Assembly: GCA_050998515.1 (NCBI GenBank)
Contig: JBPCQC010000019.1
Span: 200,357-264,356 of the forward strand
DNA from: Verrucomicrobiales bacterium
Lineage (GTDB): Bacteria > Verrucomicrobiota > Verrucomicrobiia > Verrucomicrobiales > V1-33
DNA: 64,000 bases
Direction: 5' to 3'
Below are positions 33,343 through 49,329 of the stretch, piece by piece. Every line of letters starts with the position of its first letter. The stretch's first letter is position 1. The notes under the pieces are model-generated. The model had not been told where the DNA came from and ran no database searches. It saw only the letters and a list, made by a program, of their open reading frames with translations. The translations under genes and the position numbers were made by a program.

Positions 33343-36093
33343 ATGGAATTGAACACTCCTCCATCCGCCGCTGACGATCCCGCTCCGTTCACGGACTACT
33401 TCTGGGCGAAGACGGATCCCATCACCGGTGCTCCGGCACGGACGGTCACGGAGCACTCTTTCCAGGCTGGAGCTGTGGCGGAGTGTCTTTGGGCGGTGCT
33501 TGGGGAGCCGGTGATCGCGCTGTTGCCGCGGGGCAGCGTGACGCTCGCGGCCTTGCACGATGTCGGGAAGCTGACGATCGGATTTCAGCTGCAGTGCGGA
33601 GTCTGGAAGCCGCCGGAAGCGATCCGCACGGCGATGGCCGGTGCGGCGGCGCGTGACTCGATTTCGCGGCACGCGACGCTTTCGCAACGCGATCTCGAAC
33701 TGCGGCTCGGCAAGGCGCGAGCGTGGGCGCGGGCTATCGGTGCGCATCATGGCGCGTTCACCGAAGGCGGGAAGCGGGAGGATTTGCGTGCGTTGTTCGA
33801 CCCGATCCGGGGTGCGCTGGTCGAGCGGATTGTGCAGAGATTCGGTGCGTTGCCGGTCGTCCCGCCGGCCACGGGGCGGGATGCGAAGGTGGCGCAACTT
33901 TGCTGCCTCGCGGGCTTCATCGTGCTCGTCGATTGGATCGCGTCCGATGAACGCAACTTTCCGCTCGCGGCCCCATCGCTTTTTAGCAGGCCATTTACGG
34001 GTCACGATCTGGAGCTCGCGGAGGAGAAAGCTCGTGAAGCGGTCGCGGCGCTGCGTCTCGCCGCACCTCGGTTGAAGGCTGGGTGTGCGTTCCAGGAGTA
34101 TGTCGGGAAGCCTCCCTATCCCTTGCAGGAAAAGGCTCTCGAACACATCGCCGGGCCAGGACTCTACATCGTCGAAGCGGCGATGGGTGAGGGGAAGACC
34201 GAGGCGGCGCTGGCGGCGGCGTATCGCAATATCGAGCGCGGTCTGGCCCGCGGATTTTACTTCGCGCTGCCCACGCAGCTCACCTCGAATGAAATCCACC
34301 GGCGCACGCGGGAGATTTTCTCGCGCCTGGTCGAAAGCGACGCGCCGATGCCGCTCGCGCATTCGGCTTCATGGCTCACCCAACCCGATCGCCTCATCCT
34401 GCATCCCGCAGTGCCTCAAGATGCCGATCAAGACGAGATCGAACAGGCGGTGCAGCATCTGCGCGCCGCTCGTGCCTGGCTCACGTCGCGCAAGGCGTTG
34501 CTGGCGCCATTCGGCGTGGGCACCATCGATCAGGCGCTGATGGCGACCCTTCCGGTGAAGTTTGCGCACCTGCGGCTCTTCGGCCTCGCGGGAAAGGTGA
34601 TCATCTTCGACGAAGTCCACAGCTACGACACCTACACGAGCGCGATTCTCGAGGCGCTGATTCGGCTGCTGCTGGAGTTGCACTGCACAGTCGTCGTCCT
34701 CTCGGCCACGCTCACCCGCCGGCAGCGCGATTGCCTGCTGCGAGCGGCGACCGACGTCGAGCCCGAATCGAAAGACGAGCGCTGGGAAAAATATCCGCTG
34801 CTCTCGATCGCGAGGAAGGGCGCTCCTCCCGAGCCGGTCACAATTGAGGAATCGAACGCGCGCAATCGGACCGTTCTTCTGACGCATGTCACGATGGCTG
34901 ATCCCTCGTTAAGCACCGACGTGCTCGCGACCATCGAGCAGCGGGTGAAAGAGAACTTTTGCGTGCTCATCATCCGCAACACCGTGGCTCTGGCGCAGGA
35001 GACATATCGTGAGGTGAAAGGACTGCTCAACGAAGCCGACGATGCAGAGCGCGTGGGCCTGCTGCACAGCCGCTATCCTTACTTCCAACGCTTCGGCCAT
35101 CCCGATCGCGCCGCCGATCGGGGACGCGAAGCGCGCTGGGTCGAGCGGCTCGGGAAAGAGCGCCAGCATCGGCCATCCGGGGGCTGTGTGCTGGTGGCGA
35201 CGCAAGTCGTCGAGCAGTCGGTGGACGTGGATGCCGACCTGCTCATCACCGATCTTTGTCCTACCGATCAGCTTCTCCAGCGCATCGGCCGGCTGCATCG
35301 CCACCCGGAACCGCGAACGCTGCTCGCGACGCGAGCGGAGGCGATCCTCTTGCATCCCGTGCTGCCGCAGCCGAGCGAAGCAGACCCCGCGGAATGGAAA
35401 CGAGCGCTCAAGCCGCACGGCAATCTGTATGCGCCGTATGTCTTGCTGCGGACAGAAGTGCTCTGGAGGAAAAACATCGCGATCAACTTGCCGCAAGACA
35501 TTCGCCCGCTGCTGGAGGCCACCTATGCGGCTCCAGCGGATGATGAACCCGCTGATTGGAGCACGCTTGCCGACGAGCTCCAAAAGCGCCGCGACACGCT
35601 GACGGCCAAGGCGCAAGCCTTCGCCAGCAGCCTTGGCAAACCGCCTGAGTCCGACGACGAAAACACGGCTCCGACGCGCTGGATCGACTGCCCGACTCTC
35701 GATCTCGTGCTCTTGCGGTCCCGCCCAGAGGTGCAGCCTGGTGGAAAGATCGAGCTGCACTTCCTCGACGGCGCGATCCTCCACTGGCACCCGCGGGCGG
35801 GTTGGGATCACGAGGTTGCACGCGCCGTTTTCATCAACAGCGTGCGCATCCCGGCCTATCTCTTTGCCAAGACCGAGGCCCCCGATTGGCTCCACACCCA
35901 CACGCACGGCCTGGCTGGCGCGGCTTGGAAAGCTGACCGCGGCACGCTCATGAACTGCGCCGACGGATCGACCCTGCCCTTGCGCTACTGCGACGCGGAA
36001 GGCGTGGTCGCGATCGGAAAAGCTGCCAAGACATCGTCTTTCCCGGGCGAGGCCGCCGAATTTCCCGAGGACGAGGAAGACGGTTTCAACTGA
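33343..36093 (+). CDS. cas3: Cas3 HD nuclease / DExH helicase, type I-E
   Basis: 916 aa. HD motifs are present (LAALHDVGK, IGAHHG). Helicase motifs are present (AAMGEGKT, IIFDEVHSY, VLSATL, QVVEQSVDVD, IGRLHR). It heads the cas operon. Confidence 0.92.
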   Translation: MELNTPPSAADDPAPFTDYFWAKTDPITGAPARTVTEHSFQAGAVAECLWAVLGEPVIALLPRGSVTLAALHDVGKLTIGFQLQCGVWKPPEAIRTAMAGAAARDSISRHATLSQRDLELRLGKARAWARAIGAHHGAFTEGGKREDLRALFDPIRGALVERIVQRFGALPVVPPATGRDAKVAQLCCLAGFIVLVDWIASDERNFPLAAPSLFSRPFTGHDLELAEEKAREAVAALRLAAPRLKAGCAFQEYVGKPPYPLQEKALEHIAGPGLYIVEAAMGEGKTEAALAAAYRNIERGLARGFYFALPTQLTSNEIHRRTREIFSRLVESDAPMPLAHSASWLTQPDRLILHPAVPQDADQDEIEQAVQHLRAARAWLTSRKALLAPFGVGTIDQALMATLPVKFAHLRLFGLAGKVIIFDEVHSYDTYTSAILEALIRLLLELHCTVVVLSATLTRRQRDCLLRAATDVEPESKDERWEKYPLLSIARKGAPPEPVTIEESNARNRTVLLTHVTMADPSLSTDVLATIEQRVKENFCVLIIRNTVALAQETYREVKGLLNEADDAERVGLLHSRYPYFQRFGHPDRAADRGREARWVERLGKERQHRPSGGCVLVATQVVEQSVDVDADLLITDLCPTDQLLQRIGRLHRHPEPRTLLATRAEAILLHPVLPQPSEADPAEWKRALKPHGNLYAPYVLLRTEVLWRKNIAINLPQDIRPLLEATYAAPADDEPADWSTLADELQKRRDTLTAKAQAFASSLGKPPESDDENTAPTRWIDCPTLDLVLLRSRPEVQPGGKIELHFLDGAILHWHPRAGWDHEVARAVFINSVRIPAYLFAKTEAPDWLHTHTHGLAGAAWKADRGTLMNCADGSTLPLRYCDAEGVVAIGKAAKTSSFPGEAAEFPEDEEDGFN

Positions 36094-36296
36094 GCAATCC
36101 CCCAGCGTTGGAGGAAAAACGTCATCTTCACACACAAACATGGACCATCCCTCCAACGTGAAGGGAACGCGCGATTGTGGTGCTCCCAGATCGAATCACA
36201 AGGGGATTTCGTAGCAATAGGTTCAGAAACTCATCTTTTTAATCTTTTCACAGAAACACTTTGACATAAATCCGCTACCCGCCAGTATCCAACCCG

Positions 36297-37889
36297 TTGC
36301 CGCCAACACCCGACCTCTTGAACGCCCCAGCCTCCTTCAATCTCGCCCAAGACCCTTGGATTCCCGTCCGGTTCCTCGATGGGACTTCCGACCTCGTCAG
36401 TCTGCGCGAGGCGTTCGCTCGGGGCCGCGCGATCCACGATCTCGCCGCTCGTCCGCACGAGCGGATCGCGCTCCTGCGGTTGCTCATCTGCATCGCTCAA
36501 GCGGCGCTGAATGGCCCCGATACGGACGACGCCGGCGAGTGGCGCGAGGCGGAGGAAGGGCTGCCGGATGCAGCGTCCAAGTATCTCGAAAAGTGGGCTG
36601 GCGCGTTCGCGCTCTTCGGCGAGGGCCCGCGGTTCTTGCAATTGCGCACGGCCAAAGCCGAGGAGACGGCAGCGAGCAAGCTCTTTCCTCCGCTGGCCTC
36701 CGGAAATAATCCCACGCTCTTCGATCATGCGGGCGGCGAGGAACGCGCGTTCGCTCCCGCGGCGCTCGCCCTTGGCTTGGTCAGCTTCCAGAATTTCTCC
36801 CCGCTCATTGGTCGCGGCTACACGGGCCGCGGCCCGTGCGTGGATCGTAATGCGCTCCATGTCTTCCGCATCGGCGCCAATCTCCTCGAGACGGTGCTGC
36901 TCAATGGCGTCAGCATCGAGCGGATCGAGGGCGACGGGCGCGGAAGTTTTGGGCGGCCGATTTGGGAGATGCCTCTTACCGATCCCGCCGGCGTGGACTC
37001 GGCCGCGGTGCGCAATGCCACCCGCACGTATCTCGGCCGGCTCGCCCCGCTCGCGCGTAGTGTGTGGCTGGCGGAGGATGGCCGCTCATTGGTGCTCGCG
37101 AATGGTCCGGATTACCCCGCCTTCAAAGTCGGCTGGAAAGAGCCGAGCGCGACCGAGGGCATTCGGCAGGAAAAGGAGCGCTACCTTCTCGGCGCATCGC
37201 TGGGGAGGGCGGTTTGGCGAGAGCTTCACGCGATCACCGTCGCGAACTCGGATGGCTTGGGGCGGGCGGCGACGCTCGCGCGCCAAGGGGAAGAGGAGGC
37301 GTGCTCGCTGTGGGCCGGCGGAATGGTGACCGATTTCAAAGCGAAGATAGAAGACGCTGTCGCCTCCCGGTTCCAAGGCGATCTCGCCGTGCCGGGAAAG
37401 CTGTTTTCGTCGGACACGTCGGCTCATCTCCACTATCACGGCGGCGTGCAGGCGGCGAACGCTTGGGAGAATGCTGCACGTTTCGCCGTCAAGCAATATG
37501 CTGACATCCTAAGCTCCCGAAACAGCGATAAGCCAACGACCGACCAGCGCACCACCGGTCTGCGCGATGCGGCCTCGGCATTTTTCTGGAACGAAGCGGA
37601 GCAACACCTCCGCGAGCTTTTTGCGCTCGTGAACGATCTCACGCTGCTCGGCGGCAAGGCCGCGCGCGATCCGTATGCGCCCACCGCCTGGCACCGGGCG
37701 TTGCGCCGCGCGGCGGCAGCAGCATTCGAGGCGGTCTGCCCGCAGGACAATGCCCGCCAGCACGAGGCTGCCGGGAAGGCGCGCGCTTTCTTGCGCGCGA
37801 AAAGTCTCGAATCGAAACCTGCGAGGCGCGGCGGCAGGTCGCGCGCTGCGAAAACCACTCCTGACCCAACTCCGTTGCCCCATGCCTGA
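36297..37889 (+). CDS. cas8e: Cse1/CasA (Cas8e), Cascade large subunit
   Basis: 530 aa. The N-terminal 'NLAQDPWIPVR' matches the CasA N-terminus (E. coli MNLLIDNWIPVR). Its position after cas3 fits. There is no in-frame ATG, so the start is TTG at 36297 or TTG at 36318. Confidence 0.85.
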   Translation: MPPTPDLLNAPASFNLAQDPWIPVRFLDGTSDLVSLREAFARGRAIHDLAARPHERIALLRLLICIAQAALNGPDTDDAGEWREAEEGLPDAASKYLEKWAGAFALFGEGPRFLQLRTAKAEETAASKLFPPLASGNNPTLFDHAGGEERAFAPAALALGLVSFQNFSPLIGRGYTGRGPCVDRNALHVFRIGANLLETVLLNGVSIERIEGDGRGSFGRPIWEMPLTDPAGVDSAAVRNATRTYLGRLAPLARSVWLAEDGRSLVLANGPDYPAFKVGWKEPSATEGIRQEKERYLLGASLGRAVWRELHAITVANSDGLGRAATLARQGEEEACSLWAGGMVTDFKAKIEDAVASRFQGDLAVPGKLFSSDTSAHLHYHGGVQAANAWENAARFAVKQYADILSSRNSDKPTTDQRTTGLRDAASAFFWNEAEQHLRELFALVNDLTLLGGKAARDPYAPTAWHRALRRAAAAAFEAVCPQDNARQHEAAGKARAFLRAKSLESKPARRGGRSRAAKTTPDPTPLPHA

Positions 37890-38442
37890 ACATCCGTTCC
37901 CTTTCCACGCCCTCTACCAGCTCACCGAGCGCAAAGGCCGCGACGGCCAGCCTCGTGATGACAAGGGCACCCGAGCCGCGCTGCGGCGCCTGCTTTCCGA
38001 CACGCGCCGGTCCAAGGCGGTGGGCTGGATGGCGCTTGGCGCGCTCGGCGCGGGAAGCTTTGCCGACGACCCCGTGGCGGAGACGGTCGCCGGCATTTAC
38101 GGGCTGCACCCGAAGCCGAGCCATGACAAGGAGTTCAACTTCGGCGCCACCTGCCGCAAGCTGCGCGAGAAGAAGAGCAAAGACTTCAGCGAGCCACATC
38201 CGTTCGACAATCACTTCCGCCGCCTCCTCGGCGCGCGCACGCAGGGCGACGCGTGCAAGGTGGTGCAGCGCATCGCGCGGATGGCGGAAGCCGAAGGCAT
38301 CGAGATCAATTTCGAGCGGCTTTTTTACGACCTGTGCAGATGGGAGGATGACTGGCCGCGCCGGAACTGGACGCGCGCCTATTTCCGAACCCCGCAGCCT
38401 GAGGACGACTCCGAAATCACCGCCCCCGCTGTCCATGAATGA
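37882..38442 (+). CDS. cas11: Cse2/CasB (Cas11), Cascade small subunit
   Basis: ATG at 37882 overlaps the cse1 3' end by 8 nt. It encodes a 186-aa helical Arg-rich protein (TRAALRRLLSD..., ...WTRAYF). Size and position are typical for Cse2. Confidence 0.8.
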   Translation: MPEHPFPFHALYQLTERKGRDGQPRDDKGTRAALRRLLSDTRRSKAVGWMALGALGAGSFADDPVAETVAGIYGLHPKPSHDKEFNFGATCRKLREKKSKDFSEPHPFDNHFRRLLGARTQGDACKVVQRIARMAEAEGIEINFERLFYDLCRWEDDWPRRNWTRAYFRTPQPEDDSEITAPAVHE

Positions 38443-39142
38443 GCGCCTCCATCTCGCTCGCGCGCTCGTCCCTTACGAAGTCGCCGTGAAGCGCGGCATG
38501 ACCGATCCTTACGCCTGGCATCAGCGCGCCTGGGATGCGTTCCCGAGCCGCGACCGGCAGCCGCGGGACTTCCTCACCCGGCTCGAAGAAAAGGACGACG
38601 TCCTCCAGCTCATGATCCTCTCGCCGACCCCGCCCGAGCGCCCCGGCTGGTGCCCTACCGACGGCTGGCAGGTAAAGCCGATCCCCGAGGATTTCCTCGG
38701 CCACGAGGAGTATGACTTCTCGCTGCTGGCGAACCCCACGCGCAAACTCGTGGTGCGCGACGAGGCCGGACAGCGCCGCAAGAATGGGCGGCGGATCGCC
38801 ATCACGCACCGCGAAGATCGGCCCGACACGAACGCGCCGGACCGCATGGCGCCGGGACTCCTCTCGTGGCTTCAGCGACACGGCATGGAAAATGGCTTCG
38901 CGATCGTGCCGGACCAGACGCGCACCATCCCGCAGCCCTTTCGTCGTTTTCATAAAGAGAAGCACACCGTCTCGCTTCACGCGGTGGACTTCCGCGGCCG
39001 ACTGCAGGTCACCGATCGCGCGCGCTTCCGCAGCATCTTCCACGGACGCCCCGATCCGGTGGACCCGGCGCGGCTCATCTACGGCTTGGGCCGCGCGAAG
39101 GGCTTCGGCTTTGGTCTGCTCGCCGTCGTCCCTGTTTCCTGA
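38435..39142 (+). CDS. cas6e: Cas6e (CasE/Cse3) crRNA endoribonuclease
   Basis: ATG at 38435 overlaps the cse2 3' end by 8 nt. 235 aa. The C-terminal glycine-rich loop 'GLGRAKGFGFGLL' is diagnostic of Cas6e. Confidence 0.85.
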   Translation: MNERLHLARALVPYEVAVKRGMTDPYAWHQRAWDAFPSRDRQPRDFLTRLEEKDDVLQLMILSPTPPERPGWCPTDGWQVKPIPEDFLGHEEYDFSLLANPTRKLVVRDEAGQRRKNGRRIAITHREDRPDTNAPDRMAPGLLSWLQRHGMENGFAIVPDQTRTIPQPFRRFHKEKHTVSLHAVDFRGRLQVTDRARFRSIFHGRPDPVDPARLIYGLGRAKGFGFGLLAVVPVS

Positions 39143-39195
39143 ATTTCCGAACGAACCTCCTCCAAACCAACTCACCCTAAGACCCACATCCACCC

Positions 39196-40248
39196 ATGAA
39201 ACTGCTGGAACTCCACATCCTCCAATCCTACCCCGTCACCTGCCTGAACCGGGACGACATCGGCTCGCCCAAATCGGCGGTCTTCGGCGGCTCCACCCGC
39301 GCCCGCATCAGCAGCCAGAGCCTGAAGCGCGCGATTCGCGAATACGCGCAGACCGTTTTCCCCTCGGCTGCCTTTGCGGGCCAGCGCTCGCGCTACCTCC
39401 TCGAACGATTCTCGAAAGCCATCGTCGCCGCCGGGCTCGCGGAGCCGGAAGCGACGAAGAAAGCCGAGGAACTCGCCGCCATCTTCAGCAGCCTGCAGGA
39501 TCCAAAGGAGCGGCAAAAATCCGGCGATGTGACCACCGCCGTCTTCCTCTCGCCGGCCGAGATCGAGCAGCTCGCGCGCGTTGCCGCCGATGGAGGCGAC
39601 CTCGCCAAAGCCGCGCGCAAGGTCACCCGGCTCGATGCCGCCGACATCGCGCTTTTCGGACGGATGGTCGCGAACGACTCATCGCTCAATGTCGAAGGCG
39701 CGAGTCTGTTTTCCCACGCCATCTCCACCCACCGGTGCGACAACGACACCGACTTCTTCTCCGCCATCGACGACGTGAAACGCGCCGCCGTTGGCACCAC
39801 CGATGCCGGCGCCGGAATGATTGGCAACATCGACTTCAACTCCGCCTGCTACTACCGCTACTGCGCGCTCAACCTCGACGAACTCGCCCGCCCCACGCAT
39901 CTCGGCGGCCTCTCGCAGGAGCAGCGCCGCGCAGTCGTCGATGCCTTTCTCCGTGCCACGCTCCAGGCGATTCCCGCCGCCCGCAAGCACTCGATGAACG
40001 GGCACACCCTGCCCGGCTACGCGCTCGGCATTTACAAGGCGGCCGGCCAGCCGCTGCAGCTCGTAAATGCTTTCGAGAAGCCGGTAACAACTCGGGGGGA
40101 GGGCTACCTCGAGGGTTCGCGTGAGCGGCTGACCGAGCACCACCGCGAGCTCAAGGACACTTGGGGATTGAAGAACGATCTCGAACTCGAACTGCCGGGC
40201 CTGACCCTCGACGGTTTCATCACGCAACTCGTCACCCACGTCCCATGA
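39196..40248 (+). CDS. cas7: Cas7e (CasC/Cse4), Cascade backbone subunit
   Basis: 350 aa. The N-terminus MKLLELHILQSYPVTCLNRDDIGSPKSAVFGGSTRARISSQSLKRAIR closely parallels E. coli CasC. Confidence 0.9.
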   Translation: MKLLELHILQSYPVTCLNRDDIGSPKSAVFGGSTRARISSQSLKRAIREYAQTVFPSAAFAGQRSRYLLERFSKAIVAAGLAEPEATKKAEELAAIFSSLQDPKERQKSGDVTTAVFLSPAEIEQLARVAADGGDLAKAARKVTRLDAADIALFGRMVANDSSLNVEGASLFSHAISTHRCDNDTDFFSAIDDVKRAAVGTTDAGAGMIGNIDFNSACYYRYCALNLDELARPTHLGGLSQEQRRAVVDAFLRATLQAIPAARKHSMNGHTLPGYALGIYKAAGQPLQLVNAFEKPVTTRGEGYLEGSRERLTEHHRELKDTWGLKNDLELELPGLTLDGFITQLVTHVP

Positions 40249-40997
40249 ACAGCGCCACACTCGCAGTGGTCCTCGACGCTCCGCTGCAAAGCTGGGGCCA
40301 CGCCTCCCAATTCCAGCACCGCACGACTGCCGCGCACCCGACCAAGAGCGGCGTGCTCGGCCTCGTCGCCGCCGCGCTCGGCATCGACCGCAACGCATCC
40401 GATGAAGCCGACCTTCTCGTGCCTTTCGCCGCGCTGCATTTTACCAGCCTGCGCGTGCCGCGGCCCCACCCCCGGCGCAACGAGCGGCTGCTTCCCGTCC
40501 TGCGGCTCGAGGATTACCACACCGTCGGCGGCGGCTACGATGAAGACGACCCTCGCGAGCGACTCTGCATCCCGCGCAAGGCGGAGCGTGGCGGCGTCTT
40601 TGGCACCGTCGTCACCCGTCGCACCTATCTTCAGCAAGCGCGGTTCATCATTTTCATGGAAGGCTACCGCGCCAGCATTGATCGCATCGCGACGGCTCTT
40701 CAGAACCCCGTATGGGGTGTCTGGCTGGGCCGCAAGAGCTGTGTCCCTGCCGTGCCCGTCCAGCCCGTCATTGCCGAGAGCCGCGCGTCGGCCCTCGTAA
40801 TTTTGCTGCGCCGCATCCGCTATCCGCAGCCGGACGCGCCGGAGACGGACTTTGATCGCGAGGAGACCGCGACCGACGCTTCGCAAGCTCACCATTTCCT
40901 GGCAGACCAGCCGCTCGGTTACGGCAGTCGGCAATTCTCGCACCGTGGCATCACAGTCCATCGCGCGCCCAGACCAGCCCCGGGAAGTGGGGAATGA
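40245..40997 (+). CDS. cas5: Cas5e (CasD)
   Basis: ATG at 40245 overlaps the cas7 stop (ATGA). The N-terminus MNSATLAVVLDAPLQSWGHASQFQHRTTAAHPTKSGVLGLVAAALGIDR parallels E. coli CasD. Confidence 0.85.
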   Translation: MNSATLAVVLDAPLQSWGHASQFQHRTTAAHPTKSGVLGLVAAALGIDRNASDEADLLVPFAALHFTSLRVPRPHPRRNERLLPVLRLEDYHTVGGGYDEDDPRERLCIPRKAERGGVFGTVVTRRTYLQQARFIIFMEGYRASIDRIATALQNPVWGVWLGRKSCVPAVPVQPVIAESRASALVILLRRIRYPQPDAPETDFDREETATDASQAHHFLADQPLGYGSRQFSHRGITVHRAPRPAPGSGE

Positions 40998-41332
40998 CCG
41001 GTTGCACGGATGATGCCCGTTTTCTATCCTCTGCCGCCATGATTCCTTCCCGCCACGTCCTGCTCGAACGCCTGCGCGCGGCGATGCCGGCGCTGGCCGG
41101 GGAGTTCCCGCTGCGACGCATGGCGCTGTTCGGCTCCGTGGCGCGCGGGGATGCCACCGAGGCGAGCGACATCGACATCCTCGTGGATGTGGACCCGCGG
41201 ATCGGGCTCGGGTTTGTGACGCTCGCGGAGCGTCTGGAGCAGTTGCTGGGGCACAAGGTGGACCTGGTGTCGCGCCGCGCCGTGAAGCCTTCGCTCTGGA
41301 AGCAGATCGAACCGGAGCTGCTGGATGTCTAA
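40994..41332 (+). CDS. mntA: MntA-type minimal nucleotidyltransferase antitoxin (HEPN/MNT module)
   Basis: Carries the NTase motif LFGSVARGDATEASDIDILVD. ATG at 40994 overlaps the cas5e TGA (ATGA); an alternative ATG at 41039 would give a 97-aa product. It overlaps hepT by 8 nt. Confidence 0.8.
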   Translation: MTGCTDDARFLSSAAMIPSRHVLLERLRAAMPALAGEFPLRRMALFGSVARGDATEASDIDILVDVDPRIGLGFVTLAERLEQLLGHKVDLVSRRAVKPSLWKQIEPELLDV

Positions 41333-41657
41333 ACGCGATCCCGCCCTTCTCCTCGAGGACATGCGCGCGGCGCTGGAGAAGATCGCCCGCTACACGGCGG
41401 GGATGCAACGCGCGGCCTTCCTCGCGGATGAGAAGACGGTGGACGCCGTGGTCCGCAATCTGGAGATCATCGGCGAGGCCTCGAAACAGGTGCCGGAGGA
41501 ATTCAAGGCGCTGCATCCCGCCCTGCCGTGGTCGCAGATGGCCGGGCTCCGCAACCGGATCGTGCATGATTACGCCGGGATCGATCTGGAATTGATCTGG
41601 GACATCGTCGGGAACTCGCTGCCCGCCCTGCGCGGGCAGTTGGACGGTCTGGCGTAA
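41325..41657 (+). CDS. hepT: HepT-type HEPN (DUF86) toxin
   Basis: 110 aa. The HEPN Rx4H motif is in the typical context (MAGLRNRIVHDYAGIDLELIWDIV). The gene is downstream of and overlapping the MNT gene. Confidence 0.85.
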   Translation: MSKRDPALLLEDMRAALEKIARYTAGMQRAAFLADEKTVDAVVRNLEIIGEASKQVPEEFKALHPALPWSQMAGLRNRIVHDYAGIDLELIWDIVGNSLPALRGQLDGLA

Positions 41658-41680
41658 AACCGACGGTCTTATTCCTCCGC

Positions 41681-41715
41681 TCAATCCTAAATCCTAAATC
41701 TGAAATCCTAAATCC
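41681..41715 (+). repeat. Five tandem G-poor heptanucleotide repeats (TCAATCC TAAATCC TAAATCT GAAATCC TAAATCC) ending 2 nt before the cas1 ATG
   Basis: Read directly from the sequence. The period is exactly 7 nt, and the repeats occupy most of the 60-nt hepT-cas1 spacer. Confidence 0.8.
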
Positions 41716-41717
41716 AG

Positions 41718-42605
41718 ATGCCCCTCTTCGAACGCCCGCCGCTGGAAACCCTCGCCTCGGCGAAGGATCGCTGGACGCCGCTTTACCTCGAGCACGGGCG
41801 GCTCGAGGTGGATGACTCGAGCGTCAAATGGATCGGCGCCGATGGCCTGCTCTGCCGCATCCCGGTCGCCACCGTCTCCGCGCTCATCCTCGGGCCGGGC
41901 ACCACCATCACGCACGCGGCGGTGCGGGCCTGCGCGGAATCGAACACGCCGCTGTGCTGGACTGGCGCGGATTGCCTGCGCTTCTACGCCTTTGGCCTCA
42001 CCCCGAATCACACCAATGACATGCCCCGGCTCCACGCCGAGGCCTGGGCCGACAAACGCCGCCGCACGCAGATTGCCCGGCGCATGTTCGCGATGCGCTT
42101 TCCCGATGTGGACGTGGAGGGCCGGTCCGTGAAGGAGCTCCGCGGCATGGAAGGGCTCCGCGTGCGCGCACTCTACAGCCAGCTCGGCCTCGAGCACGGC
42201 GTCACCTGGAAAGGGCGCAACTACGACCGCACGAACTGGGATATTTCCGATTCGATCAACCGCGCCCTCTCTGCTGCCAACGCGAGTCTTTACTCCCTCG
42301 TCGCCGCCGTCGTCTGCTCGCTCGGCTACGTGCCGAGTCTCGGCTTTGTGCATGACGCGGGCACGCTCCCGTTCATCTACGACGTGGCCGATCTGTATAA
42401 GCATCTCACGAGCATCCCCGCCGCCTTCCTCGCCGCGCGGCAGGATCCCGCCGACGAAGGCGAACTCGTGCGCACTTTGCTCAAAGAGCGCGTCGAGGAG
42501 CACCGCATCCTCCAGCGCATTCCCAAGGACCTCGCCGCGCTCTTCGATACCGCCGAAGCCGCGCCTGCCTCCGCGACCAGCCGCCCGCCTTCGGCGACTG
42601 CGTAA
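41718..42605 (+). CDS. cas1: Cas1e integrase
   Basis: 295 aa. It can be aligned by eye along its length with E. coli Cas1 (LYLEHGRLEVDD..., GPGTTITHAAVRA..., ELRGMEGLRVRALY..., GFVHDAGTLPFIYDVADLYK). Confidence 0.9.
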   Translation: MPLFERPPLETLASAKDRWTPLYLEHGRLEVDDSSVKWIGADGLLCRIPVATVSALILGPGTTITHAAVRACAESNTPLCWTGADCLRFYAFGLTPNHTNDMPRLHAEAWADKRRRTQIARRMFAMRFPDVDVEGRSVKELRGMEGLRVRALYSQLGLEHGVTWKGRNYDRTNWDISDSINRALSAANASLYSLVAAVVCSLGYVPSLGFVHDAGTLPFIYDVADLYKHLTSIPAAFLAARQDPADEGELVRTLLKERVEEHRILQRIPKDLAALFDTAEAAPASATSRPPSATA

Positions 42606-42617
42606 TCTCTCCGTCAC

Positions 42618-42645
42618 TCAACACTCAACTTTCAACTCTCAACCC
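42618..42645 (+). repeat. Four tandem G-free heptanucleotide repeats (TCAACAC TCAACTT TCAACTC TCAACCC) in the cas1-cas2 spacer
   Basis: Read directly from the sequence. The period is exactly 7 nt. A 7-nt CTTCCCT follows, then the cas2 GTG at 42653. Confidence 0.8.
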
Positions 42646-42652
42646 CTTCCCT

Positions 42653-42952
42653 GTGACCGTCATCGTCGCCCACGACACGCCGCCCGCCATCCGCGGGATG
42701 CTCAAGCGCTGGTTCATCGAGCCGCAGCCCAACGTCTTCGTCGGCACGCTGACCCGGCGCACGCGTGACAAGACGCTCGACTACATCAAGCGCAACGCCG
42801 CCGGCATCGCGCTGCTGATGATCTCGTCCGAACCCAACTGCCAGGGCTTCAAAATCGAGATTCACGGCGAAGTGCGCCGGCGCGACGCGCAGCTCTCCGG
42901 CCTGTGGCTGGTGGCGGAGAAGTGGGTGGAAGCCGAAAACCTGCCTTTCTGA
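42653..42952 (+). CDS. cas2: Cas2e
   Basis: 99 aa with a GTG start. MTVIVAHDTPPAIRGMLKRWFIEPQPNVFVGTLTRRTRDK parallels E. coli Cas2 ([32 protein letters not shown]...). Confidence 0.85.
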   Translation: MTVIVAHDTPPAIRGMLKRWFIEPQPNVFVGTLTRRTRDKTLDYIKRNAAGIALLMISSEPNCQGFKIEIHGEVRRRDAQLSGLWLVAEKWVEAENLPF

Positions 42953-43001
42953 TTTGCGGCAGAACGCAAGAATCGCGAACGTAAGCCGTTGGCAATCCAG
43001 A
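42953..43001 (+). promoter_or_regulatory. CRISPR leader (only 49 nt between the cas2 stop and the first repeat)
   Basis: It is on the cas-proximal side of the array, while the degenerate and SNP-bearing repeats lie at the opposite end. Its leader role is inferred. No promoter boxes were identified confidently. Confidence 0.5.
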
Positions 43002-46000
43002 GTTCTCCCCACCCGCGTGGGGATGGTCCGACCGTCTCTCATGACACCATAGCCGTCAAGCTGTTCTCCCCACCCGCGTGGGGATGGTCCGCTCATCAGC
43101 AAACCGCGTCGAATAATCATACAGTTCTCCCCACCCGCGTGGGGATGGTCCGGCGGAGCGCACCGGGTAAGCCAGCTCTTCTTTGTTCTCCCCACCCGCG
43201 TGGGGATGGTCCGCCACTGACGTTGTTGAGCGCGCCACGCAGGCCGTTCTCCCCACCCGCGTGGGGATGGTCCGCGCATCCCAGGCGTCCGGATCGCGCG
43301 TGCGGGGTTCTCCCCACCCGCGTGGGGATGGTCCGGTTTCGAGCTGGGGCAATCTGCAGCCGGTCTCGTTCTCCCCACCCGCGTGGGGATGGTCCGTGGA
43401 TCGTCGCACCGTTTGCAATCGCATGGCTGTTCTCCCCACCCGCGTGGGGATGGTCCGGATTCCCGATCCGGCGCGCTGGGGTAATTTCAGTTCTCCCCAC
43501 CCGCGTGGGGATGGTCCGCTGGTCGAGCTTCTGAATAACGAACTGCGCATGTTCTCCCCACCCGCGTGGGGATGGTCCGTATGTCGCACTCTATGCGAGA
43601 TTTATTTTGCGGTTCTCCCCACCCGCGTGGGGATGGTCCGCGCTGTTCCGTCGGCGGCTTTGGCTTTCAGTTGTTCTCCCCACCCGCGTGGGGATGGTCC
43701 GGGTGGATGGACCGGCGATTTCATCGCGACACCGTTCTCCCCACCCGCGTGGGGATGGTCCGCCGGGTGTGGGCGCTCGACTGGATGATGATGTGTTCTC
43801 CCCACCCGCGTGGGGATGGTCCGCGGCGCCGGCCGCGGTCTCCGGGCAGCGGAAAGTTCTCCCCACCCGCGTGGGGATGGTCCGCAATGTTAATCGAAGG
43901 CGTTGATGAGAACGAGGTTCTCCCCACCCGCGTGGGGATGGTCCGCGGCTCTCGCTTAAGGCTGGTGCTTGGGCAGCGTTCTCCCCACCCGCGTGGGGAT
44001 GGTCCGGGTAGGGGCTGAGCTGCCCCCGGCCCCTTCCTGTTCTCCCCACCCGCGTGGGGATGGTCCGGACATCGGAGAGCGCGTCATCGATGAGAAGGGG
44101 TTCTCCCCACCCGCGTGGGGATGGTCCGATCCTCGAGCAGGAAGGCCTCACGCTGCCGAAGTTCTCCCCACCCGCGTGGGGATGGTCCGCGCTTTTGGAT
44201 GTTGCCGTGGATATCGAGGATGTTCTCCCCACCCGCGTGGGGATGGTCCGACATGGTGGCTCACCACGGTTACCTTCCGCTAGTTCTCCCCACCCGCGTG
44301 GGGATGGTCCGTTATTCGACGATGGAGCGTCTTGGTAGATTTTGTTCTCCCCACCCGCGTGGGGATGGTCCGGGCAACCGCATCCTCGTGCGCAAACAGG
44401 CAACGTTCTCCCCACCCGCGTGGGGATGGTCCGAAATGACTCAGGCTCCTAACTTCGCACGCACCGTTCTCCCCACCCGCGTGGGGATGGTCCGGGGCCG
44501 GTGGAGGTGAATGAGAAGACGGTGGAGTTCTCCCCACCCGCGTGGGGATGGTCCGGTAAAATCCAGAGCGACTGCCATGTAGTTGTTGTTCTCCCCACCC
44601 GCGTGGGGATGGTCCGCGCAGCATCAGCCACAACGAGATTGTGACGGTGTTCTCCCCACCCGCGTGGGGATGGTCCGCATATTTTCTGGCAGTGGGTGTG
44701 CTCATGGGCGTTCTCCCCACCCGCGTGGGGATGGTCCGTGACAGTGGAAACAGAGGATGAGGACGTGCTGGTTCTCCCCACCCGCGTGGGGATGGTCCGT
44801 CCTCGTCGCTGTCGGCCATCTTTACCAGGTAGTTCTCCCCACCCGCGTGGGGATGGTCCGCCCTTCTTGCGCACGCGCTTCATTTCGCGCGAGTTCTCCC
44901 CACCCGCGTGGGGATGGTCCGGGCAGCAACTGGTCGGAGTTACCACCGGAAAGGTTCTCCCCACCCGCGTGGGGATGGTCCGATCGAGATCGCCGCGGCC
45001 AAGGTCCGTAATGGGTTCTCCCCACCCGCGTGGGGATGGTCCGGCGCGCGGCACCAAGGTGGCAGATGGCTCCACGTTCTCCCCACCCGCGTGGGGATGG
45101 TCCGTCGGCGGCGGCGATGGCTTCATTGAGCAGGAGGTTCTCCCCACCCGCGTGGGGATGGTCCGGAATCGAGGAATTGATGCGCCAGGTTGCGGACGTT
45201 CTCCCCACCCGCGTGGGGATGGTCCGAATGGTGAGGACCTGGCTGAGCGTTTGGCGCAGTTCTCCCCACCCGCGTGGGGATGGTCCGGGATTCGGGAAGC
45301 CATCGTCATGCACCACGAGGTTCTCCCCACCCGCGTGGGGATGGTCCGCAAACGTTCGCGGCGCAGGAGCGCGTCTTTTAGTTCTCCCCACCCGCGTGGG
45401 GATGGTCCGACCTCGCGCGGGGCCATCAGGCGCGGGCGGCAGTTCTCCCCACCCGCGTGGGGATGGTCCGGTGGTGGATGTGCCTGCCGCTCCGGGCGCT
45501 CCGTTCTCCCCACCCGCGTGGGGATGGTCCGCAATCCCGCGGCGGAGAGGCACAACAGCAGTTGTTCTCCCCACCCGCGTGGGGATGGTCCGATGGCGCG
45601 CTCCCCGGGGCGGTCGATATCATCGTTCTCCCCACCCGCGTGGGGATGGTCCGTCTTCCTCGCTGTCCGCCATCTTCACCAGGTAGTTCTCCCCACCCGC
45701 GTGGGGATGGTCCGTGGGCGAGTTCAAGCCGCCGTTTCCACTGCGGGTTCTCCCCACCCGCGTGGGGATGGTCCGAAATGGAGGCGAGCATGAGTAAAAA
45801 CAACGGCGTTCTCCCCACCCGCGTGGGGATGGTCCGGACGTCATGAAGGAGCAGTGACCCGGCGTTCTGTTCTCCCCACCCGCGTGGGGATGGTCCGCAA
45901 ACCAACTCAGCAAAGACCAATCAAACGCCGTTCTCCCCACCCGCGTGGGGATGGTCCGACTCGAGGCGCCCTTCTGGCCATCGCCCCTGAGTTCTCCCCA

Positions 46001-47848
46001 CCCGCGTGGGGATGGTCCGACACCCCGAGCGCCCGAGCTTTCCGCAGCCGCGTTCTCCCCACCCGCGTGGGGATGGTCCGAAAAGTTCCATGCCCCACCG
46101 CTCGCGGCAATCGTTCTCCCCACCCGCGTGGGGATGGTCCGAAGAACGAGCACCTTGGCGGCGGGCGATGACTGTTCTCCCCACCCGCGTGGGGATGGTC
46201 CGCTGGAACCATCGCGATCACTCCCGCGGCTGCTGTTCTCCCCACCCGCGTGGGGATGGTCCGCACATGAAGATCCACTGGCTCCTATCGAGACTGTTCT
46301 CCCCACCCGCGTGGGGATGGTCCGCGAGAGCCGCTTGATCCACCCGGTCTTGTCGAGTTCTCCCCACCCGCGTGGGGATGGTCCGTCAATACACTATATT
46401 GGGTCGTTATGATGGTCGTTCTCCCCACCCGCGTGGGGATGGTCCGCGGGGCGAGCAGCTCGTATGAGTGGTGCGAATGTTCTCCCCACCCGCGTGGGGA
46501 TGGTCCGTCTGGCGGCAAGGCCACCGGAGCGCTGCGCCGGTTCTCCCCACCCGCGTGGGGATGGTCCGCGCCATCTGCTCGTAATCCCCTGTTCCAGCCA
46601 GTTCTCCCCACCCGCGTGGGGATGGTCCGCAGAAGCACCCGCGCTATTCCTGGGTGGCGCTGTTCTCCCCACCCGCGTGGGGATGGTCCGTTGCCGGGCG
46701 GGCAGGTGCCCATCACTAGCACGTTCTCCCCACCCGCGTGGGGATGGTCCGGCCCGCGGCGGCGGGTGATGCGGCGGCGGGTGGTTCTCCCCACCCGCGT
46801 GGGGATGGTCCGCATCTTGAAACGCTTGTCGAAACACGGGTGTCGTTCTCCCCACCCGCGTGGGGATGGTCCGGCGGGCGATTCCTTGAGGAGGTCCTGG
46901 TCGACGTTCTCCCCACCCGCGTGGGGATGGTCCGAGTCCTTGCCTCCGGTAAAGCTGAGCCGCGGTGTTCTCCCCACCCGCGTGGGGATGGTCCGGATAA
47001 TTATACTGGCGCCTGGCAACTCTGCTGGTTCTCCCCACCCGCGTGGGGATGGTCCGAAGCTCGGACAGATCATCGACGTTTATGTCGGGTTCTCCCCACC
47101 CGCGTGGGGATGGTCCGGCTGGCGGCTTTCTGCCGAGTCAGAAACCTTCGTTCTCCCCACCCGCGTGGGGATGGTCCGAGATCGAGCGCCTCGAGCGGGG
47201 TGAGTCGCCGTTCTCCCCACCCGCGTGGGGATGGTCCGTGGCCATAGTCATCGACTACCGACATCAGCCGGTTCTCCCCACCCGCGTGGGGATGGTCCGC
47301 TCAGCGTTTCGCTGTGCGCTCCCTCTGAAATGTTCTCCCCACCCGCGTGGGGATGGTCCGGAACTCCTGTGTTGGACATCCAGTAGTAGCCGGTTCTCCC
47401 CACCCGCGTGGGGATGGTCCGCAACCTGACCAGTCTTAACGCGTCCAACCTTTGTTCTCCCCACCCGCGTGGGGATGGTCCGGTGGTCTCATTCATGGGA
47501 TTCACGTTGATCCGGTTCTCCCCACCCGCGTGGGGGTGGTCCGGGCCTCGCCAAGATGTTTGCCGGCACGCCGGCGTTCTCCCCACCCGCGTGGGGATGG
47601 TCCGGCGGATCACAATACGACTGCGACGGGGACGGAGTTCTCCCCACCCGCGTGGGGATGGTCCGTTCATCGAAAACCGCTCGCGTCACCGCAGGCTGTT
47701 CTCCCCACCCGCGTGGGGATGGTCCGCCGTTTAAGTGAGCGATTAGTGAGTCGAAGGTGTTCTCCCCACCCGCGTGGGGATGGTCCGTTGTAGGCGGCGA
47801 GGGCTTTCTTTTGAGCGGGGTTCTCCCCACCCGCGTTCCGTCTACCTT
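43002..47848 (+). CRISPR. Type I-E CRISPR array: 80 repeats of 29 nt (GTTCTCCCCACCCGCGTGGGGATGGTCCG), 79 spacers
   Basis: Every repeat was enumerated by hand. The period is 61 nt from 43002 to 47150, one 60-nt unit follows (31-nt spacer at 47179-47209), then the period is 61 nt to 47820. The repeat has the palindromic core CCCCAC-CCGC-GTGGGG and ends ...CCG, like the E. coli I-E repeat in the transcribed orientation. Repeat 75 carries A>G at 47536. The terminal repeat (47820-47848) keeps only the first 17 nt. Confidence 0.97.
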
Positions 47849-47850
47849 CG

Positions 47851-49329
47851 TTACCCCAGCACGCGATTAAGCAAGTTTCGCGTGATAGTTTGGACCCGCG
47901 TGTCGGGTCCATTTGGACATGGCGTCGTGTAGGCCGTCGGTCTCATAAAACCGGGTGGTTCACTTAGCCCGAGGCTCCACCAGATCGTCGAGGCGTTGAA
48001 GACGAAGTTTTTCTTCGGGGCTGGATAGATCGTCGCGACGAACTGGCCGCCATTCAGTTTTCCGGGAGCTGATTGTGTAGGGCCGGCGGCGACGATTTCC
48101 AGTCCGGGAATGTCGGTGGCGGGATCGCCGTGCCATTCCCATCCGACGAGGCCTGGGATGGCGTCGCCCTTTTTCATGCCGGTGCTTTCGAAGAGCCAGT
48201 GTTCCGGTTTAACGCACGTCCAGTCGGCACCGCCGGTAACCGGCCAGACGCTGTGCGCACCGATCAGGTTTTTCGCCCAGGGACTGGTGTGCGGAAGCGT
48301 GTTCATGGCCACGAATCGCATTTCGGTGTCAGCAGGTCCGAAGACATCGATGCGTTCGAACGCTCGGTGTCGTCGGCCGTAGGCGATGCGCCCGCAACAA
48401 GTGTTGCCAGAAAGAAACAGCACGCTCACACCGGCATCAATGGTCGCGCGCACATTGTCATACATTTCAAGTGTCCAATATTCGTCGTGGCCAACCGAAA
48501 GCAGCCCGCGCGCGCGCGTGAGACCACCGCGGTCGCGATGTGTATCGACATTCGAAATGTAGGTGACGTCGTATCCATGCTCCTCGAGCCAAAAGGCCAG
48601 CGGGAACTCCCAGAGTAGAAATTCCCCGCTGCCGGTGCTGACTGGCACGTCGAAAATCTGACAGTATTTACCGTACGGCCGGTTGAAGCTGACTTTGACG
48701 CCGCCTCCCCAATACCAATCGCTCTTACCATCATCGTAGAGCGAGAAGTGGTCCGGCCATCGGTTGTAGGACTGCCACGTATGATCGGAGCACTGAAACA
48801 GAAAATCCGCCTGGCGGTCGTCGCGTACGATGAATATGACGTAGCTCTGTATCCCTTCGCGGCACTCGGTCAATTTGCCAAGATAGACCCCGCTCAACCA
48901 GTCAGCGGGAATTTTAATTTCTGCCGACACTTCCCAGGCGCAATCGCGCAGGCGCTTTTCGCCAACCGGCGGGTCCGCTTGTATGCGGCCGGCAAACGGC
49001 CCCATCGAGCCAACTTGCCGCCCGCCCGCTCCCCCGTAGTATCCGAGCCGAAAAATATCGAGTGTGAATGCTGACGCGGGATTCGTGCTTACGAAAAATT
49101 TGAGCGTTTCCCCGGCCTTCACGCTGGCATGGGAGCAATAGCCTTCGATCCAGGGACAACGCCATTTCGCCGCTCCATCGACTCGCGTCTTCGTCAGCAA
49201 CCAATCGCGGGCTCCTGGTTTCGAATTTTCGAGTCTGACGAGATCGCCGCCCTGCACCGAAGGCAGGACCAGCCCTGCTGTCGACCCTGCTGCCGTCGCC
49301 TTTAAAAACCCGCGTCTGGTCGCACGCAT
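47851..49329 (-). CDS. Tat-secreted protein, N,N-dimethylformamidase beta-subunit-like family
   Basis: 492 aa. A Tat signal is present (MRATRRGFLKATAAGSTAGLVLP). The body (IEGYCSHASVKAGETLKFFVSTNP...YVIFIVRDDRQADFLFQCSDHTWQSYNRW...) matches my recollection of this family. Its stop lies 2 nt from the last CRISPR repeat. Confidence 0.5.
   Translation of the reverse strand: MRATRRGFLKATAAGSTAGLVLPSVQGGDLVRLENSKPGARDWLLTKTRVDGAAKWRCPWIEGYCSHASVKAGETLKFFVSTNPASAFTLDIFRLGYYGGAGGRQVGSMGPFAGRIQADPPVGEKRLRDCAWEVSAEIKIPADWLSGVYLGKLTECREGIQSYVIFIVRDDRQADFLFQCSDHTWQSYNRWPDHFSLYDDGKSDWYWGGGVKVSFNRPYGKYCQIFDVPVSTGSGEFLLWEFPLAFWLEEHGYDVTYISNVDTHRDRGGLTRARGLLSVGHDEYWTLEMYDNVRATIDAGVSVLFLSGNTCCGRIAYGRRHRAFERIDVFGPADTEMRFVAMNTLPHTSPWAKNLIGAHSVWPVTGGADWTCVKPEHWLFESTGMKKGDAIPGLVGWEWHGDPATDIPGLEIVAAGPTQSAPGKLNGGQFVATIYPAPKKNFVFNASTIWWSLGLSEPPGFMRPTAYTTPCPNGPDTRVQTITRNLLNRVLG

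What the first reader, a model, noticed from the sequence alone, without database searches (positions are those of the whole stretch)
44800..45685. Two spacers (no. 30 and no. 44) target the same protospacer in two variants that differ only at every-third positions
Seen in sequence:
- Spacer 30 (44800-44831) is TCCTCGTCGCTGTCGGCCATCTTTACCAGGTA.
- Spacer 44 (45654-45685) is TCTTCCTCGCTGTCCGCCATCTTCACCAGGTA.
- They are 28/32 identical, with mismatches at spacer positions 3, 6, 15 and 24, all multiples of 3.
- The reverse complements read YLVKMADSDE and YLVKMADSEE. Three of the four changes are synonymous third-codon changes and one is Asp/Glu.

Inference: both spacers derive from the 5' end of the same conserved protein-coding gene (possibly spanning its ATG) in two related mobile elements or phages. 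The leader-proximal and therefore younger spacer 30 carries a change at seed position 3 relative to spacer 44.

This fits an escape variant being re-sampled at the identical PAM-defined site, for example by primed adaptation, which is well established for type I-E.
Basis: partly seen in the sequence, partly recalled or inferred. Interest (0 to 1): 0.62.

Follow-up and report, generated by a model that had tools for sequence, protein, structure and literature searches.

The report
Two CRISPR spacers, one target site
Two of the 78 memory units in a bacterial CRISPR immune array were copied from the same spot of a protein-coding gene in two diverged relatives of an unidentified virus or plasmid, which is a real but already documented kind of event.

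Summary
Spacers 30 (44800-44831) and 44 (45654-45685) of a 78-spacer type I-E array match at 28/32 bases in the same register. The next best pair matches at 20/32.

The four differences (positions 3, 6, 15, 24) all lie in the one codon phase that is GC-rich in both spacers, the wobble phase. The best reading is two independent acquisitions from the homologous site of a coding gene in two diverged relatives, not a duplication within the array.

New here:
- The neighbouring spacer 31 matches uncultured virus contigs at 29-31/32, mostly behind a 5'-AAG PAM. This fixes the PAM, the array orientation and the seed end.
- The host is a Verrucomicrobiales MAG.

- The forward frame (SSSLSAIFTR) shares the same wobble positions and makes all four changes silent, so the coding strand is undecided.
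- Nothing supports a gene start at the ATG.
- Four scattered silent changes look like ordinary lineage divergence, not a selected escape mutant.

The target of spacers 30 and 44 was found in no collection. Priming, strand bias and their PAM therefore remain untested. The phenomenon is already described, for example in Legionella type I-C arrays. Interest is low.

The parts
44800..44831 (+). Spacer 30 (younger copy): TCCTCGTCGCTGTCGGCCATCTTTACCAGGTA
45654..45685 (+). Spacer 44 (older copy): TCTTCCTCGCTGTCCGCCATCTTCACCAGGTA. It differs from spacer 30 at positions 3, 6, 15 and 24.
44861..44892 (+). Spacer 31, the immediate older neighbour of spacer 30 and the only spacer with real protospacers found. 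It matches at 29-31/32 in uncultured virus or MAG contigs, preceded by AAG (most), ATG or AAA. It is antisense to a small Zn-ribbon gene (..QRSREMKRVRKKGL..).
43002..47787 (+). CRISPR array: 79 repeats of 29 nt (78 identical, one A>G variant at 47515-47543) and 78 spacers. The repeat folds into a 7-bp stem with a 4-nt loop and a 3' tail, as in type I-E repeats.
47820..47848 (+). Degenerate terminal repeat (GTTCTCCCCACCCGCGTTCCGTCTACCTT) after a 32-nt pseudo-spacer. It marks the old, trailer end of the array.
42953..43001 (+). Leader: 49 nt between the cas2 stop codon and the first repeat. New spacers are inferred to enter here, so spacer 1 is the newest.
   Evidence: The orientation is also supported by the AAG PAM lying 5' of the spacer-31 protospacers when read in the + direction.
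41718..42952 (+). cas1e (41718-42605) and cas2e (42653-42952), the adaptation genes.
33343..40997 (+). Interference genes: cas3 33343-36093, cse1 36297-37889, cse2 37882-38442, cas6e 38435-39142, cas7 39196-40248, cas5e 40245-40997.
43458..43489 (+). Spacer 8. It has partial homology (21/22 nt, blastn-short E 9e-5) to an intergenic stretch of contig L038, which also carries the spacer-31 protospacer.
46020..46051 (+). Spacer 50. It has a 19/19-nt match (E 2e-5) inside the large terminase gene of virus contig L006, which belongs to the same group of uncultured viruses.

Best explanation
Spacers 30 and 44 are two separate acquisitions by the Cas1-Cas2 complex of this type I-E system. Both were taken from the homologous PAM-flanked 32-bp site of one conserved protein-coding gene, carried by two diverged relatives of the same unidentified phage or other mobile element.

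Spacer 44 was taken first and spacer 30 fourteen integrations later. The two source sequences differ only at synonymous-type (third-codon) positions: 4 of 10 wobble sites and 0 of 22 other sites. That is ordinary neutral divergence between co-circulating lineages.

By the E. coli Cascade rules (inferred, not tested here), positions 6 and 24 are not base-paired. Each crRNA therefore meets the other variant with two effective mismatches, one in the seed (position 3) and one outside it (position 15). Such a target is poorly cleaved but can still stimulate primed adaptation.

Holding both spacers thus gives full cover against both variants. Whether spacer 30 was acquired through priming by spacer 44, or by an unrelated naive event at a favoured AAG site, is open.
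For: Shown:
- The pair is 28/32 identical in the same register, far outside the background.
- The mismatches are confined to the GC-rich wobble phase.
- The flanking spacers are unrelated, and 78 of 79 repeats are identical (1 change in 2291 nt, against 4 in 32 nt for the pair), so drift after an in-array duplication is not credible.
- The I-E gene set is complete and the array lies next to cas2.
- An AAG PAM lies 5' of real protospacers of spacer 31 in several independent contigs.
- Natural variants of the spacer-31 protospacer differ from the spacer mostly at wobble positions (12, 27, 30; one contig differs at 27-29). This is the same kind of variation as between spacers 30 and 44.
- Spacers 8, 31 and 50, at very different array depths, all show homology to one group of uncultured viruses linked to Verrucomicrobiota. 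The lineage has therefore met related elements repeatedly.
- 40 of 78 spacers have their wobble phase at positions 3, 6, 9..., as expected (46%) for AAG-flanked sites in coding DNA.

Precedent: pairs of spacers in one array that hit the same or overlapping protospacers, with the older one mismatched in seed or PAM, are described for Legionella type I-C (PMC5071653).
Against: - The target itself was never found, so 'same gene, two relatives' rests on the pattern within the spacers alone.
- The PAM of this particular protospacer is unknown.
- Two paralogous copies inside one element would give the same picture.
- The coding strand is unresolved.
Confidence: 0.75

Rival explanations
1. Primed adaptation. 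crRNA-44 bound the variant element imperfectly, recruited Cas3, and the resulting fragments fed Cas1-Cas2. This re-sampled the very same AAG site as spacer 30, and possibly also gave neighbours such as spacers 29 and 31.
For: - A seed mismatch (position 3) plus one further effective mismatch is the classic priming-competent configuration in E. coli type I-E (established knowledge).
- In E. coli type I-E, acquisition is most efficient close to the priming site and keeps the same orientation (PMC5389539).
- Spacers 30 and 44 have the same orientation.
- A pre-existing, partly matching spacer is present.
Against: - None of the diagnostic signatures could be examined, because the target replicon is unknown. 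These are clustering of neighbouring spacers on one replicon, a strand bias and a distance gradient.
- No fetched contig carrying the spacer-31 protospacer carries a protospacer for spacer 30, nor a full-length match of at least 21-22/32 for any other spacer; only spacer 8 has a partial, gapped match on one of them (L038).
- Priming normally spreads acquisitions over many sites and does not specifically favour the priming protospacer.
- Repeated exposure plus hot AAG sites is sufficient to explain the pair.
Confidence: 0.35
2. Two paralogous copies of the gene, or a repeated module, lie within one mobile element. Both spacers would then come from the same genome.
For: The pattern within the spacers (wobble-only divergence) is equally compatible with old paralogues.
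Against: - Thirteen unrelated spacers separate the two, which suggests separate events.
- About 40% divergence at wobble sites with no amino-acid-changing difference outside them is more typical of orthologues under the same constraint.
Confidence: 0.07
3. Array recombination or horizontal transfer. The two spacers were acquired in different cells or lineages and brought into one array by recombination between arrays.
For: The CRISPR-cas island has 64-66% GC against 55-61% in the flanks, so it was acquired horizontally. Arrays with identical repeats can recombine (established knowledge).
Against: The closest related loci found (Cas1 in the same 90% cluster; repeat identical or differing by 1 nt) share no spacer with this array. 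There is therefore no sign of block exchange.
Confidence: 0.1
4. Duplication of one spacer within the array followed by point mutation, or chance or low-complexity similarity.
For: None beyond the similarity itself.
Against: - Only the spacer is similar, not the neighbouring units.
- There are four changes in 32 nt, while 2291 nt of repeats carry one change.
- All four changes lie in the wobble phase (p about 0.006).
- The sequence is not low-complexity, and the score lies far outside the shuffled maxima.
- There is no copy elsewhere in the window.
Confidence: 0.02

Closest known systems
Spacer pairs against overlapping or identical protospacers of LME-1 in Legionella pneumophila type I-C arrays (Rao et al. 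2016, PMC5071653)
   Same: Two spacers sit in one array against the same site of a recurrent mobile element. The older one is mismatched in seed or PAM relative to the sequence matched by the newer one. The authors interpret this as repeated invasion by related elements, possibly with priming.
   Different: The subtype (I-C against I-E) and the host differ. In Legionella the target element is known, so the mismatches could be assigned to the element. Here the target is unknown and the two spacers are exactly in register.
Primed adaptation in the E. coli type I-E system (e.g. Strotskaya et al. 2017, PMC5389539; Datsenko et al. 2012, cited from memory)
   Same: Both are type I-E systems with an AAG PAM, a PAM-proximal seed and a G at the repeat end. 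A seed-mismatched older spacer is the configuration that triggers priming.
   Different: The hallmarks of priming (many new spacers from one replicon, a gradient, about 90% strand bias) are experimental population data. A single in-register pair in a natural array does not show them.
E. coli K-12 CRISPR-I / type I-E locus architecture
   Same: Shared features are 29-nt repeats with a stem-loop and an ..CCG 3' end, 32-nt spacers, the array directly downstream of cas1-cas2, and the Cas3 plus Cascade gene set.
   Different: The gene order is cse2-cas6e-cas7-cas5 rather than cse2-cas7-cas5-cas6e. An MntA/HepT toxin-antitoxin pair is inserted between cas5e and cas1. The leader is only 49 nt, and the host is a Verrucomicrobiales MAG.

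Membership tests
[quoted passage not shown] | Signature gene set: cas3, cse1/cas8e, cse2, cas7, cas5e, cas6e, cas1e, cas2e | tested here: met
   NCBIfam hits above the curated cut-offs: cas3_core and cas3_HD domain models for Cas3, and casA_cse1, casB_cse2, casC_Cse4, casD_Cas5e, casE_Cse3, cas1_ECOLI and cas_CT1978 for the others. Pfam calls on the identical Logan contig agree.
[quoted passage not shown] | 29-nt partly palindromic repeat ending in ..CCG, 32-nt spacers, array next to cas2 | tested here: met
   79 repeats with 61-nt spacing. The repeat has a 7-bp stem and a 4-nt loop, with a folding energy of -12.4 kcal/mol.
[quoted passage not shown] | 5'-AAG (AWG-type) PAM immediately upstream of the protospacer on the spacer-identical strand | tested here: met
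   Among distinct spacer-31 protospacer contexts the PAM is AAG in five, ATG in one widespread lineage seen in six contigs, and AAA in two. This was not shown for spacers 30 and 44 themselves.
Pair of spacers from one protospacer in two sequence variants | Same register and orientation, with similarity far above background | tested here: met
   The pair is 28/32 identical and the next best pair 20/32. The gapped score is 24 against shuffled maxima of at most 15.
Pair of spacers from one protospacer in two sequence variants | Differences follow the pattern of coding-sequence divergence (third-codon positions) | tested here: met
   All 4 differences lie at positions 0 mod 3, which is the GC-rich phase (0.9) in both spacers. 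The coding strand is unresolved.
Pair of spacers from one protospacer in two sequence variants | Both map to homologous positions of real, related target genomes | tested here: inconclusive
   The wobble-degenerate pattern gave no match in viral, genome or metagenome contigs, and there was none in annotated phages or plasmids. A relaxed pattern hit only a tail-spike gene of 40%-GC viruses, with 23/32 identity and PAM AGT/AGC. About one such hit is expected by chance.
Product of primed adaptation | A pre-existing spacer with an imperfect match (seed or PAM defect) to the invader | tested here: met
   Spacer 44 compared with the sequence recorded by spacer 30 has mismatches at positions 3 (seed) and 15, plus the unpaired positions 6 and 24. 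The consequences are inferred from E. coli rules.
Product of primed adaptation | Co-acquired neighbouring spacers map to the same replicon, clustered around the priming site with a strand bias | not testable with these tools
   The target replicon was not found. No contig carrying the spacer-31 protospacer carries a protospacer for spacer 30, and only spacer 8 shows any other (partial, gapped) match on one of them.

The most novel reading that the evidence does not exclude
In natural type I-E arrays, priming may preferentially re-sample the priming protospacer itself when its PAM is intact. This would be 'in-place updating' of an outdated spacer, and in-register variant pairs like 30/44 would be its footprint. 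A smaller point: the codon-phase imprint seen here (51% of spacers with wobble at positions 3, 6, 9...) could allow a PAM class to be inferred from spacers alone when no target is known.
Probability: 0.1. Interest if true: 0.45.

Novelty: new member of a known kind. Interest (0 to 1): 0.2.

Why it matters
The pair is a clean natural record of one CRISPR lineage meeting two diverged relatives of the same invader. It shows how an array keeps cover when silent drift in the invader erodes an older spacer.

It does not change what is known. The same situation has been described in other arrays, and the key mechanistic question (primed or naive) cannot be answered without the target genome.

The practical gains:
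- A confirmed AAG PAM and array orientation for a type I-E system of an uncultured Verrucomicrobiales bacterium.
- A first host link for a group of uncultured viruses, through spacer 31.
- A caution: a wobble-only pattern in a 32-nt spacer fits two reading frames, one on each strand.

Tried and rejected
1. Direct target search. The pattern TCNTCNTCNCTNTCNGCCATNTTNACNAGNTA covers both variants and every synonymous relative in either frame. It gave no match in viral contigs, genome contigs or metagenome contigs. All 79 spacers concatenated gave nothing against annotated phages and only chance-level 25-30-nt hits against plasmids. There is no copy elsewhere in the window.

2. Terminase lead. Spacer 30 has a 16/17-nt match at the 3' end of the large terminase gene of L005 (..ALADSVEEV.. 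against ..KMADSDE..). I tested it in three ways:
- a chimeric C-terminal query against 5.8 billion proteins gave 3 hits, none with the peptide;
- a profile search of 1.84 billion representatives gave 138 hits, none with the peptide;
- a position-specific score of the peptide behind the conserved NHLGDxEK motif was -2.3 to -2.5 bits, rank 63-70 of 1083 control peptides, against a family median of +12.9.
The lead is rejected as unsupported.

3. A relaxed pattern hit a tail-spike-like gene (..FYLVNMADSDLE..) in two 40%-GC virus contigs. The match is 23/32 and the PAM is AGT/AGC. About one chance hit was expected, and no homologue carries the motif. I treat it as chance.

5. Wobble-degenerate scans for spacers 29 and 60 found nothing. 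The scan for spacer 50 gave one spurious hit, antisense to an endolysin gene with PAM TCC.

6. Peptide-level similarity of spacers 22, 54 and 60 to terminase motifs is not above shuffled controls.

7. The similarity between spacer 35 and pseudo-spacer 79 (20/32) lies within the null range.

8. Related arrays (L032-L035) share no spacers with this one, so they say nothing about the order of events.

9. I tried to settle the coding strand by codon usage. The calibrated ratio is about 5.6:1 for the reverse frame. It is offset by the 4/4-synonymous forward reading and by the published type I-E preference for sense-oriented spacers (57%, PMC8482600). The strand is left undecided.
Full report
**1. 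What is there**

The stretch 43002-47787 is a CRISPR array of 79 copies of the 29-nt repeat GTTCTCCCCACCCGCGTGGGGATGGTCCG. Of these, 78 are identical and one, near the far end, has an A>G change. The array holds 78 spacers of 32 nt (one of 31 nt). It is followed by a 32-nt pseudo-spacer and a half-degenerate repeat at 47820-47848.

The repeat folds into a 7-bp stem with a 4-nt loop and a short 3' tail.

Directly upstream on the same strand lies a full type I-E gene set: cas3, cse1, cse2, cas6e, cas7, cas5e, cas1e and cas2e. Only 49 nt separate the cas2 stop codon from the first repeat.

The cas2-side leader, the decayed repeat at the other end, and the position of the PAM (section 3) all say that spacer 1 is the newest. 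Spacer 30 is therefore younger than spacer 44.

The exact Cas1, Cas7 and a flanking protein are on record from a 284-kb contig of a MAG named Verrucomicrobiales bacterium.

**2.

Spacer 30 (44800-44831) and spacer 44 (45654-45685) have the quoted sequences. They match at 28/32 bases in register, with mismatches at positions 3, 6, 15 and 24.

| Comparison | Spacers 30/44 | Next best pair | Shuffled sets |
|---|---|---|---|
| In-register identity | 28/32 | 20/32 | not applicable |
| Gapped score, both strands | 24 | 15 | maxima 11-15 |

Further points:
- The sequence is not low-complexity and has no other copy in the window.
- The neighbouring spacers are unrelated, so this is not a duplicated block.
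- The repeats carry 1 change in 2291 nt, while the pair carries 4 in 32 nt. Drift after an in-array duplication is therefore not credible.

**3. PAM, orientation and seed shown through the neighbouring spacer**

No spacer matched annotated phages or plasmids. I then replaced the presumed third-codon positions by N, which makes a search robust to silent divergence.

For spacer 31, the unit next to spacer 30, this found real protospacers. Follow-up searches with the encoded protein found more.
- The matches are 29-31/32.
- Several contigs come from different metagenomes, and one is a Spartobacteria MAG.
- Differences from the spacer are mostly at positions 12, 27 and 30 (one contig differs at 27-29).
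- The three bases 5' of the protospacer are AAG in most contexts, ATG in one widespread lineage and AAA in two.

Spacer 31 is antisense to a small Zn-ribbon gene (..QRSREMKRVRKKGL..). In one contig this gene lies just upstream of a gpA-type large terminase gene.

This gives three results:
- The system uses an AAG-type PAM on the spacer-identical strand, 5' of spacer position 1.
- The seed assignment borrowed from E. coli (positions 1-5, 7, 8; every sixth base unpaired) is applied to the correct end.
- Related viruses in nature differ at such a site in just the wobble-only way seen between spacers 30 and 44.

**4. Coding origin is supported, but strand and frame are not decided**

In both spacers, positions 3, 6... 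30 are 90% G+C, against 18% and 64% in the other two phases. This is the signature of third-codon positions in GC-rich coding DNA.

All four differences sit in that phase. The probability is 0.006 for a prespecified phase (my arithmetic).

Because 32 + 1 is a multiple of 3, the forward frame 0 and the reverse frame 0 share these wobble positions.

| Frame | Reading | Effect of the four changes |
|---|---|---|
| Forward | SSSLSAIFTR in both spacers | all four silent |

The evidence on the strand pulls both ways:
- Host codon usage favours the reverse frame. Calibrated on 220 long ORFs of the fetched GC-rich virus contigs, the observed score difference gives about 5.6:1 for the reverse frame.
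- The extra amino-acid change costs the reverse reading roughly 2-7-fold (my estimate).
- Type I-E spacers are slightly more often sense-oriented (57%, PMC8482600).

The net result is close to even, so I leave the strand open.

Nothing indicates that the ATG is a start codon. The codon periodicity continues on both sides of it. In the reverse frame shifted by one base, the A/G difference at position 24 would turn TAA into TGA, so a stop-then-start junction cannot be excluded either.

**5. The target was not found**

The degenerate pattern covers both variants and all synonymous relatives in either frame. It has no match in the viral, genome or metagenome collections.

Two leads were followed and dropped:
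- *Terminase lead.* A 16/17-nt match lies at the 3' end of a terminase gene. It failed a profile test. The peptide scores -2.3 to -2.5 bits behind the conserved NHLGDxEK motif, against a family median of +12.9, and ranks 63-70 of 1083 controls. No homologue contains the peptide.
- *Tail-spike lead.* A relaxed pattern hit a tail-spike gene of 40%-GC viruses (..FYLVNMADSDLE..). The match is 23/32 with the wrong PAM, about one chance hit was expected, and there is no motif-bearing homologue.

**6. What the array says about history**

Spacers 8, 31 and 50 lie at very different depths of the array. Each shows significant homology to one loose group of uncultured viruses:
- spacer 31 matches at up to 31/32;
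- spacer 8 matches at 21/22 on a contig that also carries the spacer-31 site;
- spacer 50 matches at 19/19 in a terminase gene.

One terminase relative is annotated as coming from Chthoniobacterales, and one protospacer lies in a Spartobacteria MAG. Both belong to the same phylum as the host.

The lineage has thus met related elements again and again. That is the setting in which the same favoured AAG site can be sampled twice.

Other observations:
- The closest related cas loci (Cas1 in the same 90% cluster; repeat identical or one base different) share no spacers. They give no information on the order of events.
- 40 of 78 spacers have their wobble phase at positions 3, 6, 9... One third is expected without constraint, and 46% is expected for AAG-flanked sites in coding DNA of this composition. 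This is a small independent imprint of the PAM.

**7. Mechanism**

*Shown:*
- There were two independent integrations in the same orientation and register.
- The differences between them lie only at wobble positions.

*Inferred from type I-E knowledge:*
- Both sources carried a usable PAM at the homologous place.
- Positions 6 and 24 do not pair, so each crRNA sees the other variant with mismatches at position 3 (seed) and position 15. Cleavage would be weak, but priming would remain possible.

*Open:* whether spacer 30 came from priming by spacer 44.

In E. coli, priming gives many spacers from the same replicon, with a distance gradient and a strand bias (PMC5389539). None of this can be examined without the target.

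The word 'escape' is not apt:
- A mutant selected to escape would carry one seed or PAM change.
- Here 4 of 10 wobble sites differ, two of them invisible to Cascade, and 0 of 22 other sites differ.
- Position 3 is the only wobble site in the seed. It is among the changed four with probability 0.4.

**8. Comparison with what is known, and verdict**

The locus is a member of type I-E by gene content, repeat, spacer length and PAM.

The spacer pair is an instance of a described phenomenon. In Legionella type I-C arrays, pairs of spacers hit the same or overlapping sites of a recurrent element. The older one is mismatched in seed or PAM, and the authors read this as repeated invasion, with priming as one possible interpretation (PMC5071653).

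The finding is real and tidy but ordinary. Interest is about 0.2.

The most novel reading still open is that priming specifically refreshes the priming protospacer in place. I give that about 10%.

Noticed in passing
41039-41657 (+): A type VII toxin-antitoxin pair sits inside the cas operon between cas5e and cas1: an MntA-like nucleotidyltransferase at 41039-41332 and a HepT RNase at 41325-41657. The four closest related loci (L032-L035; Cas1 in the same 90% cluster) have cas5e directly followed by cas1, so this is a recent insertion.
   Followed up: partly
32346-33296 (+): An ORF just upstream of cas3 contains a roughly 190-aa fragment of a Cas3 helicase core. It is only 54% identical to the resident Cas3 (residues 304-491). 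It looks like the remnant of a second, different type I-E cas3, perhaps from a replaced or decayed older locus.
   Followed up: partly
about 32000-48000: The whole CRISPR-cas island has 64-66% G+C against 55-61% in the flanking DNA, which suggests horizontal acquisition.
   Followed up: no
43031-47758 (all spacers): There is a codon-phase imprint. 40 of 78 spacers have their GC-rich (wobble) phase at positions 3, 6, 9..., against one third expected. In coding DNA of this composition, AAG-flanked sites are predicted to give 46%. The PAM leaves a detectable frame bias in the spacers themselves.
   Followed up: partly
38435-40997 (+): The gene order is cse2-cas6e-cas7-cas5e. cas6e comes before cas7 rather than after cas5e as in E. 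coli, and the same order is seen in the related loci.
   Followed up: no
44861-44892; loci L022/L013, L023-L026, L031, L037-L046: The spacer-31 protospacer lies in a small Zn-ribbon gene of about 54 aa that is conserved at nucleotide level. The gene sits in quite different virus contexts: next to a gpA-type terminase, next to DNA methyltransferases and a PAPS reductase, and upstream of a 246-aa partial ORF that I did not annotate. It looks like a mobile or very conserved module. One lineage carries ATG and two contigs carry AAA in place of the AAG PAM.
   Followed up: partly
46752-46783 and 47179-47209: Spacer 62 is a GGC-rich, near-repetitive sequence that gives many spurious matches to (GGC)n tracts. 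Spacer 69 is 31 nt instead of 32.
   Followed up: no
52196-57370 (+) and 57534-59285 (+): A 1724-aa ORF carries a 'choice-of-anchor X' domain. It is followed by a 583-aa ORF with a transposase-type HTH domain.
   Followed up: no
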